Shown: positions 34,571 to 36,067 of the stretch, piece after piece
Layout: every line of letters starts with the position of its first letter
Numbering within the stretch: the stretch's first letter is position 1
DNA from: a virus
Lineage: Duplodnaviria > Heunggongvirae > Uroviricota > Caudoviricetes
DNA: 64,000 nucleotides
Reading direction: 5' to 3' (one strand)
IMG/VR virus record: IMGVR_UViG_2529292913_000008
The notes under the pieces: model-generated
What the model was told of the DNA's origin: nothing
The model's input: only the letters and a program-made list of their open reading frames with translations
The model's database searches: none
Program-made: the position numbers and the translations under genes

Positions 34571-34595
34571 AACCGGCTTTATTGGCCGGTTTATT
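34571..34595 (+). terminator. rho-independent terminator
   Basis: AACCGGC-TTTATTG-GCCGGTT then TTATT. Confidence 0.6.
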
Positions 34596-34596
34596 C

Positions 34597-34815
34597 AACT
34601 TATCCACAGCATAGATCCAATAAACAGATCCTAAAGAGAACCTAGGAAGATCCAAAGAAGATCCCGGATCGCTGTAAGCCGCGCCATTTCTGGCCTGAAA
34701 TGGGATCAACATTGACTATACGCGATTTTATGTTGACTGTGCACGATTTATTGTTGACTGCACGCGATTTATTGTTGACTATACGCGACAGAAACATTGA
34801 CTGTACGCGATTTTA
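34597..34815 (+). promoter_or_regulatory. plasmid replication origin: DnaA box, five GATC sites in 65 bp, five about 19 bp iterons at 21 bp spacing
   Basis: TTATCCACA at 34600-34608; GATC heptamers 34611-34675; iterons TTGACT(A/G)T(A/G)CGCGATTT at 34711, 34731, 34752, 34773, 34797. Confidence 0.8.
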
Positions 34816-34890
34816 GAGCCTGACTATTCACAGTTGTTGATAACTGCAATCCAGATGACGCCAGGCCGCGCCACATATGGAGAAACCACG

Positions 34891-35775
34891 ATGCCGGAAG
34901 AAAATAAAGGCTTCCTTAGCGTTGAAGAAGTTGCAGGAAATACAGGAGAAATCCACAGCCTGAAACCCAATAACAATAGCACTATACAACCCATCGCTTT
35001 GTTGCGCTTAGGTGTGTTTGTGCCAACCTTAAAATCTACCAATGTGGCACTACGTCGCGGATCGTCAGTTACTACAAACACAACGAACGCAACCGAAGAA
35101 CTATCAAGCCTCAAAATTGTTGAGCAGGAAGGCTATGAGGGAATTGAAATACATGGTCCACGCCTGGATATGGATACTGATTTTAAGGTGTGGGTGGGCA
35201 TAACCTCCGCGTTGTTTGACTACGCACCTGATGATGACGGCATAATCACCCTGCCATTCTCCGAGTTTGCCGATCGATGCGGCTATCCACGTAAGCGCCT
35301 TTCAAAGGCGTTCCGTAAAAGTATTGATGACTCTCTGACACGCATTCAGCAGACAGTTGTCAAATTCCGCTTCCCGGCGGCAAAAGGTCATCTCAATAAC
35401 ATTAACGTCAACTTGTTGGCATATAGCAGCCTGAATACCGAGCTTGATGTTATCGAGATCCAGCCGCAGAAACAGCTATCTGAACTTTACTATGTTGACT
35501 ATAAGCGAATCCTGAAGCTGAAGATGCTGGATAAGCTCGGGCGCAAAGAGACGGCCAAGGTGCTGTATACATTCTTTGAGGCTCTACCCGCCAACCCGGC
35601 ACCTGTCAGCATTGAGCGCCTTAGAGCAAGGCTTAATCTCAAATCATCCGTTAGCGTGCAAAATAGCGTTATCAGAAAAGCTATGAAAGATTTGGAAGCT
35701 ATTGAATATCTTAAATTTTCAGAGATAAAAAACGGCAGGAAAATCGGCTTCCAGATCCATAAGCGCAATCCATAA
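34891..35775 (+). CDS. repA: iteron-binding replication initiator RepA
   Basis: blocks IQPIALLRLGVFVP and HGPRLDMDTDFKVW resemble P1 RepA as recalled; start at ATG 34891 with GGAG upstream (track start 34834). Confidence 0.8.
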   Translation: MPEENKGFLSVEEVAGNTGEIHSLKPNNNSTIQPIALLRLGVFVPTLKSTNVALRRGSSVTTNTTNATEELSSLKIVEQEGYEGIEIHGPRLDMDTDFKVWVGITSALFDYAPDDDGIITLPFSEFADRCGYPRKRLSKAFRKSIDDSLTRIQQTVVKFRFPAAKGHLNNINVNLLAYSSLNTELDVIEIQPQKQLSELYYVDYKRILKLKMLDKLGRKETAKVLYTFFEALPANPAPVSIERLRARLNLKSSVSVQNSVIRKAMKDLEAIEYLKFSEIKNGRKIGFQIHKRNP

Positions 35776-35777
35776 TA

Positions 35778-36040
35778 TTGACTATATGCGATAGCGAGAA
35801 GTTGACTATAGGCGACATTCGTTGACGCTGGTGGATTTTTGCTGGCGTCAATATTCTGCAAGTCGCTATTGAGATGGCTTTTAGGGTCATTTCATCGCGT
35901 ATAGTCAACGTTTCTCCCGACAATATCTTACATAGTCGATTTTTGGTGGAGTTAAATCGACTACAGTCAACTTTTGACTGTAGTCACATCGCGCATAGTC
36001 AACTATTCACATTAACTTTCGCGCATAGTCAACATTTGCG
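35778..36040. repeat. incA-like iteron array (about nine iteron-like repeats in both orientations) downstream of repA
   Basis: TTGACTATATGCGA, TTGACTATAGGCGA, TCGCGTATAGTCAAC, ATCGACTACAGTCAAC, TTGACTGTAGTCAC, TCGCGCATAGTCAAC x2. Confidence 0.7.
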
Positions 36041-36067
36041 CGGTTCTCATCAAGCAGTGGTATTGAT

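What the first reader, a model, noticed from the sequence alone, without database searches (positions are those of the whole stretch)
34571..36060. Iteron replicon with P1-type layout but different iteron sequence
The order DnaA box, five GATC sites within 65 bp, five iterons at 21 bp spacing, repA, then about nine iteron-like repeats in both orientations mirrors the P1 plasmid origin and its incA control locus. The iteron sequence TTGACT(A/G)T(A/G)CGCGATTT differs from the P1 iteron as I recall it, so incompatibility specificity is probably distinct.
Basis: partly seen in the sequence, partly recalled or inferred. Interest (0 to 1): 0.45.

Follow-up and report, generated by a model that had tools for sequence, protein, structure and literature searches.

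The report
P1-like phage-plasmid's p0111 replication origin
This is the plasmid-replication module of a P1-like phage-plasmid, laid out like phage P1's origin but with its own initiator protein and binding repeats; it is the already catalogued 'p0111' replicon type, present in about 8% of complete E. coli genomes, so it is real but ordinary.

Summary
At 34591-36034 there are a perfect DnaA box, five GATC sites within 57 bp, five direct 21-bp-spaced iterons, repA (294 aa), and a downstream array of three forward and five reverse iteron-like sites, two of them weak. Twelve of 13 iteron-pattern matches in the 64-kb window lie here (1.6 expected by chance). The order and spacing match the annotated P1/P7 oriR-repA-incA. 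RepA is 41% identical to P1/P7 RepA, and no P1-type iteron occurs in the window.

It is not new. The segment is 97.6-100% identical to pO111_2, SJ46, RCS47 and JL22, the 'p0111' replicon type of P1-like phage-plasmids. The roughly 42% RepA identity to P1 was published in 2017.

What I add:
- The DnaA/GATC module is a 76%-identical homologue of P1's and belongs to this replicon lineage.
- Homology to P1 resumes at 99% at 36944.
- ParA, ParB and parS are P1-type, so partition incompatibility with P1 should persist.
- An extra iteron inside repA is conserved in relatives.
- The two replicon types share only 2 of 5,426 complete E. coli genomes (27 expected).

Different replication incompatibility is plausible but untested.

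The parts
34591..34608 (+). DnaA boxes: degenerate TTATTCAAC (34591-99) followed by perfect TTATCCACA (34600-08)
   Evidence: They align with the two tandem DnaA boxes annotated in P7/P1 oriR.
34613..34671 (.). GATC heptamer module. Five Dam sites start at 34614, 34627, 34649, 34660 and 34667. By analogy with P1 this is the presumed unwinding and methylation-sensing region.
   Evidence: densest GATC cluster in the window. It is 76% identical to the P1/P7 module and closer to the same module in L008. Function is inferred from P1.
34672..34709 (.). G+C-rich spacer (GCCGCGCCA...CTGGCC) with a sixth GATC at 34704
   Evidence: The GCCGCGCCA and CTGG blocks are conserved in the window, L008, P1 and P7.
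34710..34815 (+). Five direct origin iterons (incC-like) starting at 34710, 34731, 34752, 34773 and 34795. Core sequence TTGACTRTRCGCGATTT.
   Evidence: (27-31 bits each). The 21-21-21-22 spacing is the same as in P1.
34824..34843 (.). Right-hand DnaA-box-like pair: CTATTCACA (+, 34824-32) and TTATCAACA (-, 34835-43), each one mismatch from TTWTNCACA
   Evidence: L008 has a perfect box (TGTGGATAA) in the same leader. My recollection, not checked here, is that P1 also has DnaA boxes to the right of its iterons.
34891..35775 (+). repA, the iteron-binding initiator, 294 aa, with Shine-Dalgarno GGAGA at 34879-83
   Evidence: 41% identical to P1/P7 RepA. Pfam Rep3_C 27.3 bits, Rep3_N 22.0 bits. phrog_775 at 2e-134. 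The AF2 model matches RctB domains 2-3, RepE, pi and pPS10 RepA.
35493..35513 (+). Iteron copy inside repA (core TTGACTATAAGCGA, 13 of 14 to the pattern), at +602 of the gene
   Evidence: Conserved at the same position in the 90% and 85% RepA relatives. It sits in a 17-nt identical run although repA is 75% identical overall and 47% at third codon positions. Absent from P1 and from the Klebsiella FIB-like locus.
35776..35840 (+). Three forward control-array iterons (35776, 35800, variant at 35820). The first starts immediately after the repA stop codon.
   Evidence: The variant third site is conserved in L008.
35822..35851 (.). Imperfect palindrome TTGACGCTGG...GCTGGCGTCAA, formed by the third forward site and an inverted partner
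   Evidence: Read. The partner arm is not conserved in L008. The scan did not call it a terminator. Its role is unknown.
35890..36034 (-). Five reverse control-array iterons at 35890, 35921 (decayed), 35952, 35984 and 36014, spaced 31, 31, 32 and 30 bp, plus a forward half-site at 35974-85
   Evidence: The 35921 site is intact in L008.
36068..36877 (+). T5orf172 (GIY-YIG-like) gene that travels with the cassette in P1-like elements. Here it is interrupted by an in-frame TAA at 36593-95.
   Evidence: Absent from P1 and P7 at this position.
36944..39357 (+). P1-type partition module, where 99.2% identity to P1 resumes: Ppar region, parA 37046-38242, parB 38259-39260, parS about 39265-39347
   Evidence: ParA 397/398 and ParB 332/333 identical to P1; both parS boxB hexamers are TCGCCA.

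Best explanation
This is the low-copy plasmid replicon of a P1-like phage-plasmid. It belongs to the P1/RepFIB family of iteron-controlled theta replicons, in the specificity variant that typing databases call p0111 (prototypes pO111_2, RCS47, SJ46).

Proposed mechanism, by homology with P1:
- RepA monomers bind the five phased origin iterons.
- Host DnaA binds the flanking DnaA boxes.
- The adjacent GATC heptamer region is the site of strand opening and of Dam methylation and hemimethylation control.
- The array of about eight further iterons after repA, plus one inside repA, lowers copy number by titrating RepA and by pairing with the origin iterons ('handcuffing').
- RepA bound at the origin iterons also limits its own transcription.

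Because both RepA and the iterons differ from P1's, replication control should be blind to P1's RepA and incA, and vice versa.

Shown here: the sequence anatomy, the homology, the fold class, the conservation in relatives, and the distribution. Inferred: binding, opening, handcuffing, autoregulation and incompatibility behaviour.
For: Anatomy and statistics.

Element-by-element correspondence with the annotated P1 and P7 oriR/incC/repA/incA features, including the 21-21-21-22 bp origin spacing, the roughly 31-bp reverse-array spacing, and the first control iteron abutting the stop codon.

RepA:
- Homologous to P1/P7 RepA over its full length at 41%.
- 44-49% identical to proteins annotated RepFIB/RepB in plasmids.
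- Pfam Rep3_C is above cut-off.
- The predicted fold matches the tandem winged-helix initiators RctB, RepE, pi and pPS10 RepA.

Conservation in relatives: the same architecture, including the in-gene site, recurs with co-varying iteron sequence. This is seen in an 85%-RepA relative that lies in a different genomic context (L008) and in a 53% Proteus relative.

Identity to the p0111 type: 97.6-100% nucleotide identity to pO111_2, SJ46, RCS47 and JL22. The type is described in PMC9603915, PMC5241659, PMC11165635 and PMC10879196.

Sufficiency: the replicon occurs in 415 of 5,426 complete E. coli genomes, and no record carries both it and the IncY replicon. It can therefore maintain these elements without a P1 (IncY) replicon on the same molecule; other replicon types were not screened.
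Against: No experiment on this replicon was found in the searchable literature. All functional steps are transferred from P1.

No convincing sigma-70 promoter for repA was found on the + strand. Each iteron carries a -35-like TTGACT, but no good -10 follows (and manual reading), so autoregulation through the iterons is unproven.

Pfam Rep3_N scores 22.0 bits, just under its 22.4 cut-off.

The AF2 model is of moderate quality (mean pLDDT 71, N-terminal 80 residues poor). TM-scores to solved initiators are only 0.3-0.46.

Two of the nine downstream sites are weak.
Confidence: 0.9

Rival explanations
1. It is simply the P1/P7 (IncY) replicon, with the iterons misremembered by the first reader.
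For: The flanking phage genes, the DnaA/GATC module and the par genes are P1-like.
Against: RepA is only 120/301 identical to P1 and P7 RepA, while P1 and P7 RepA are identical to each other. The P1 iteron has no match with up to 3 mismatches in the window. Nucleotide homology to P1 stops at 34694 and resumes at 36944.
Confidence: 0.01
2. It is an IncFIB (RepFIB) replicon captured from an F-type or Klebsiella plasmid, so it would be incompatible with IncFIB plasmids rather than forming its own group.
For: Several database records annotate the protein as 'RepFIB replication protein A'. RepA is slightly closer to FIB-type proteins (44-49%) than to P1 RepA (41%).
Against: Among the 5,000 best-scoring plasmid records the RepA identities fall into two groups. 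394 records are at 99% or more, only five lie between 60% and 99%, and the rest are below 60%. The repeats of the sampled E. coli FIB locus (...CTGACTACAGCTTATAT) and the iterons of the Klebsiella FIB-like locus (TGTCTAYTGTATGCTA) differ from TTGACTRTRCGCGATTT. The nearest relatives (85-90% RepA) are in other roughly 90-kb phage-plasmid-like elements, not F plasmids.
Confidence: 0.04
3. The repeats after repA are not a copy-number control locus. They would instead be regulatory sites or a promoter region for the downstream T5orf172 gene, or a second origin.
For: The reverse-oriented iterons place TATAGT/CATAGT (-10-like) hexamers on the + strand just upstream of the T5orf172 start at 36068.
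Against: The same array, with the same positions relative to the repA stop, is kept in L008. There the downstream genes are different and on the opposite strand. The array matches P1 incA in orientation pattern and in its 31-bp phasing. The T5orf172 gene is itself decaying.
Confidence: 0.04
4. The module is an inactive relic, and the element is maintained by another replicon.
For: None specific. I did not screen the rest of the window for other replication genes.
Against: repA is intact, and 394 plasmid records carry it at 99% or more. No complete E. coli record carries both this replicon and the IncY replicon. Published surveys use it as the replicon marker of about half of P1-like phage-plasmids.
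Confidence: 0.01

Closest known systems
p0111 replicon type (PlasmidFinder name; prototype pO111_2 of E. coli O111:H- 11128, also phages RCS47, SJ46 and JL22)
   Same: 97.6-100% nucleotide identity over iterons, repA and the downstream array. It has the same position in a P1-like genome and the same extra T5orf172 gene.
   Different: Nothing of substance. The window differs only by point changes, for example its own premature stop in the T5orf172 gene.
P1/P7 plasmid replicon (oriR/incC-repA-incA, IncY)
   Same: The order, number, orientation and spacing of the elements match. RepA is homologous over its full length. The DnaA/GATC module is 76% identical.
   Different: RepA is 41% identical and the iteron sequence is unrelated. 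The forward control sites are 24 and 20 bp apart rather than 31 and 41. There are five reverse sites, one decayed, rather than six. There is an extra iteron inside repA. A T5orf172 gene lies between the array and Ppar.
RepFIB-type replicons of IncF and Klebsiella plasmids, and the related replicon of Proteus plasmids
   Same: Same RepA family at 44-53% identity. In the Klebsiella and Proteus loci five roughly 21-bp-spaced iterons precede repA and further copies follow it; in the sampled E. coli FIB locus I saw repeats only after repA. A DnaA box and GATC heptamers lie upstream in the Proteus locus.
   Different: The iteron sequences differ. The downstream arrays differ in number and orientation: all forward in the Klebsiella locus, and a long 43-bp tandem array in Proteus.
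Tandem winged-helix iteron initiators with solved structures (F RepE, R6K pi, pPS10 RepA, Vibrio RctB domains 2-3)
   Same: The predicted fold class matches (Foldseek E 3e-7 to 5e-4, probability 1.0).
   Different: Sequence identity is only 11-16%. There was no sequence-level hit to any solved structure.

Membership tests
p0111 replicon type | Near-identity of the rep gene region to the reference from pO111_2 (AP010962 / NC_013370) | tested here: met
   99.1% over 1,801 nt to NC_013370. RepA cluster P0001 is 100% identical.
p0111 replicon type | Found as the plasmid replicon of P1-like phage-plasmids | tested here: met
   Flanks are 94-100% identical to P1. The best hits are punaviruses and roughly 90-100-kb E. 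coli/Salmonella plasmids.
IncY (P1/P7) replicon | P1-type RepA (P1 and P7 RepA are identical) | tested here: not met
   120/301 identical.
IncY (P1/P7) replicon | 19-bp iterons of the type GATGTGTGCTGGAGGGAAA in incC and incA | tested here: not met
   No match with up to 3 mismatches in the window.
IncY (P1/P7) replicon | Incompatibility with P1 through incA/incC | not testable with these tools
   This needs plasmid co-maintenance assays. Co-occurrence in genomes (2 observed, 27 expected) is confounded by shared immunity and par functions.
P1/RepFIB family of iteron-controlled theta replicons | Rep_3-type initiator with tandem winged-helix domains | tested here: met
   Rep3_C 27.3 bits against a 21.1 cut-off. 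Rep3_N 22.0 bits against 22.4, which is marginal. Fold matches to RctB, RepE, pi and RepA.
P1/RepFIB family of iteron-controlled theta replicons | Phased direct iterons next to DnaA box(es) and an opening region upstream of rep | tested here: met
P1/RepFIB family of iteron-controlled theta replicons | Additional iterons outside the origin that act as a copy-control locus | tested here: inconclusive
   The sites are present and conserved in relatives. Their control function was not tested.
P1/RepFIB family of iteron-controlled theta replicons | RepA binds the iterons; replication depends on DnaA, Dam and the DnaK/DnaJ/GrpE chaperones | not testable with these tools
   Inferred from what is established for P1. 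No experiment on this replicon was found.
IncFIB (RepFIB of F/P307) | RepFIB RepA and its own repeat sequences | tested here: not met
   47% RepA identity. The repeats in the sampled E. coli FIB locus L004 are unrelated.

The most novel reading that the evidence does not exclude
The p0111 lineage may have a control layout that P1 lacks. It has a conserved iteron inside the repA reading frame at +602, kept at synonymous sites across relatives with 85-100% RepA identity. A Proteus relative has an own-type counterpart in a different place. This in-gene site could act as an extra handcuffing partner or as a RepA-dependent roadblock to repA transcription.

Separately, the specificity unit (iterons, repA, control array) appears to be exchanged as a cassette between conserved flanks, namely the DnaA/GATC module or upfA on the left and Ppar on the right. 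Yet the swap does not let the two types coexist in nature (2 genomes observed, 27 expected). This would mean that replicon switching in P1-like elements is driven by something other than escape from P1-P1 incompatibility.
Probability: 0.25. Interest if true: 0.35.

Novelty: already known. Interest (0 to 1): 0.14.

Why it matters
It matters little as a discovery. The p0111 replicon is a routine typing marker, and its distance from P1 RepA is published.

Its practical value is for annotation. The window can be labelled as a P1-like phage-plasmid with a p0111 replicon and a P1-type partition system.

The fine map may be useful to anyone building p0111 mini-replicons or testing compatibility with P1-derived vectors (PACs, P1 lysogens). 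That map covers the iteron consensus, the 5 + 1 + 3 + 5 site layout, the lineage-owned DnaA/GATC module and the cassette boundaries. I found no such description in the searchable literature. P1-like phage-plasmids spread ESBL and mcr genes, which gives the map some applied relevance.

Tried and rejected
- **repA promoter.** I looked for one on the + strand with the consensus scan and by hand. No acceptable -35/-10 pair was found, only TTGACT-N17-GACTAT across neighbouring iterons. It is left unresolved.
- **Palindrome 35822-35851 as a repA terminator.** The scan did not call it, it has no T-run, and one arm is not conserved in L008.
- **Rfam search of 34300-37100.** It gave only a sub-threshold chance hit (DUF2800 RNA, 21.9 bits against a gathering score of 60.2). 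There is no antisense-RNA control element of a known family.
- **Sequence search against solved structures.** No significant hit. The fold search was needed instead.
- **NCBIfam.** It has no model for this RepA.
- **RCS47 paper** (Billard-Pomares 2014, PMC4249366). It is not held in the library, so I could not check whether iterons were described there.
- **Apparent left 'breakpoint' at 34694-34696**. This is only the limit of alignability. Sliding identity shows the divergent segment begins near 34400-34560.
- **Co-occurrence count as a test of compatibility.** Rejected, because shared immunity and par functions confound it.

Full report
**1. What is in the sequence**

Reading 34200-36600 shows the following elements.

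- **DnaA boxes.** A perfect DnaA box, TTATCCACA, lies at 34600-08, preceded by a degenerate copy at 34591-99.
- **GATC sites.** Five GATC sites start at 34614, 34627, 34649, 34660 and 34667, and a sixth is at 34704. This is the densest GATC cluster in the 64-kb window.
- **Spacer.** A G+C-rich spacer follows.
- **Origin iterons.** Five direct iterons start at 34710, 34731, 34752, 34773 and 34795.
- **repA.** It runs from 34891 to 35775 (294 aa), with a GGAGA Shine-Dalgarno sequence 7 nt upstream. NCBI annotation of pO111_2 uses the same start.
- **Forward control sites.** After the stop codon there are forward iterons at 35776 and 35800. A variant forward site at 35820 is conserved in a diverged relative.
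- **Reverse control sites.** Reverse iterons lie at 35890, 35952, 35984 and 36014. A decayed copy at 35921 is in exact 31-bp phase and is intact in that relative.
- **In-gene iteron.** One further good copy lies inside repA at 35493-35513.

The pattern TTGACTRTRCGCGA with up to 2 mismatches matches 13 times in the window, and 12 of those matches are in this locus. Shuffles give 1.57 on average.

**2. Comparison with P1 and P7**

The annotated P7 and P1 records give the same order. It is DnaA box(es), five Dam sites, five incC iterons, repA, then incA with three forward and six reverse iterons.

- P1's origin iterons are spaced 21-21-21-22 bp, exactly as here.
- P1's reverse incA copies are 30-31 bp apart, as here.
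- The first incA iteron touches the repA stop codon in both.
- RepA aligns end to end with P1/P7 RepA at 41% identity.
- P1's iteron, GATGTGTGCTGGAGGGAAA, is unrelated to the one here and has no match with up to 3 mismatches in the window.

**3. What it is called**

The segment is 97.6-100% identical to phages SJ46, RCS47, JL22 and vB_EcoM-Ro157c2YLVW, to pO111_2, and to hundreds of E. coli and Salmonella plasmids of about 90-100 kb. This is the 'p0111' replicon type.

Published surveys say that P1-like phage-plasmids carry either IncY or p0111 replicons in roughly equal numbers. They also say the type has switched many times along the phage-plasmid tree (PMC9603915, PMC11165635 and PMC10879196). 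The SJ46 paper already reports 42% RepA identity to P1 (PMC5241659).

I found no paper that describes the iterons. The RCS47 paper was not available.

**4. Extent and origin of the cassette**

Against P1, nucleotide homology is alignable up to 34694 and resumes at 99.2% at 36944, just upstream of Ppar. Sliding identity shows about 100% to P1 until roughly 34400. It then falls to 91-97%, and to 76% across the DnaA/GATC module.

A relative with 85% RepA identity (L008) lies in a different roughly 91-94-kb phage-plasmid-like element with unrelated flanks. It has a DnaA/GATC module much closer to the window's than P1's is. It also has five iterons (TTGACTATGTGCGATTT), the in-gene iteron at the same +602, three forward sites (the third a conserved variant) and four reverse sites.

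The host-factor module therefore belongs to this replicon lineage and is a diverged homologue of P1's, not P1 DNA. The module also matches SSU5-like phage-plasmids at 81-83%.

**5. The family**

- RepA is 44-49% identical to FIB-type initiators of E. coli and Klebsiella plasmids, and 53% identical to a Proteus protein.
- The Klebsiella and Proteus loci each have five roughly 21-bp-spaced iterons of their own sequence upstream of repA and further copies downstream. In the sampled E. coli FIB locus I saw repeats only downstream of repA.
- Pfam gives Rep3_C above cut-off and Rep3_N just below it.
- An AlphaFold model (mean pLDDT 71) matches RctB domains 2-3, RepE, pi and pPS10 RepA.

This places RepA among the tandem winged-helix iteron initiators.

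**6. Mechanism**

By homology with P1, which is established knowledge and was not tested here:

- RepA monomers bind the five origin iterons.
- DnaA binds the boxes on the left. One-mismatch boxes also lie on the right at 34824-43, where L008 has a perfect box.
- The GATC heptamers are opened and are subject to Dam control.
- The downstream array limits copy number by titration and handcuffing.

I could not identify the repA promoter. The leader between iteron 5 and repA is not conserved between the window and L008. This suggests that the promoter lies within the iterons, as it does in P1, but that is inference.

**7. Incompatibility**

Replication-control specificity should differ from P1. 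However, ParA is 397/398 and ParB 332/333 identical to P1, and parS keeps both P1-type boxB hexamers. They are only 58% and 43% identical to P7 ParA and ParB. Partition incompatibility with P1 should therefore persist.

Among 5,426 complete E. coli genomes:

| Replicon | Genomes |
|---|---|
| p0111 | 415 |
| IncY | 359 |
| Either | 772 |
| Both (by inclusion-exclusion) | 2 |

About 27 genomes with both would be expected if the two types were independent. No single record carries both. This shows strong mutual avoidance of the two kinds of P1-like element. It is confounded by shared immunity and par functions and by clonal sampling, so it does not test replicon compatibility.

**8. Verdict**

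It is already known as the p0111 type, so interest is low.

The only mildly new points are:
- the conserved in-gene iteron;
- the lineage-owned DnaA/GATC module;
- the cassette boundaries;
- the retention of P1 par.

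Noticed in passing
window 36068-36877: The T5orf172 (GIY-YIG-like) gene between the iteron array and Ppar has an in-frame TAA at codon 176 (36593-95). SJ46 has lysine there but carries a different premature stop further on, and pO111_2 is annotated in two pieces. The gene seems to be decaying independently in different elements.
   Followed up: partly
window 37046-39357; L002 5147-6343: PMC5241659 states that the ParA/ParB of RCS47/SJ46 are identical to P7 and distant from P1. Against the reference records the opposite holds. SJ46 and window ParA are 397/398 identical to P1 (NC_005856) and 57-58% identical to P7 (AF503408).
   Followed up: yes
window 35493-35513; L008 3603-3623; L010 1136-1156; L011 3421-3441: An iteron lies inside the repA coding sequence. 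It is conserved at +602 in relatives with 85-100% RepA identity. The Proteus relative has an own-type iteron inside its repA at +420 in the opposite orientation. P1 and a Klebsiella FIB-like replicon have none.
   Followed up: partly
window 34613-34671 versus P1 62831-62885: The GATC module has six heptamer slots. P1/P7 lack GATC in slot 2 (AGGTCC), and the window and L008 lack it in slot 3 (AGAACC). Both lineages therefore keep exactly five.
   Followed up: no
L011 2380-2484, 2733-2837, 3831-4500: The Proteus mirabilis homologous replicon has a duplicated block of five iterons upstream of repA. Downstream it has about eleven 43-bp tandem units, each holding two iteron-like sequences.
   Followed up: no
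window 34400-34550: The 3' end of upfA is closer to P7 (96-97%) than to P1 (91-92%), whereas the par region is P1-type. This shows mosaic ancestry around the replicon.
   Followed up: no
L003 (NC_013370, pO111_2): PLSDB/MOB-suite labels the replicon of pO111_2 'IncHI1B', which does not fit the p0111 name used by PlasmidFinder-based papers.
   Followed up: no
window 34715-34743 and 35781-35808, minus strand: The consensus scan finds promoter-like sites only on the minus strand inside the iterons (TGCACA-N17-TATAGT and TAGTCA-N16-TATAGT). The reverse complement of the iteron carries a -10-like TATAGT. They would point toward the GATC region and into the 3' end of repA.
   Followed up: no
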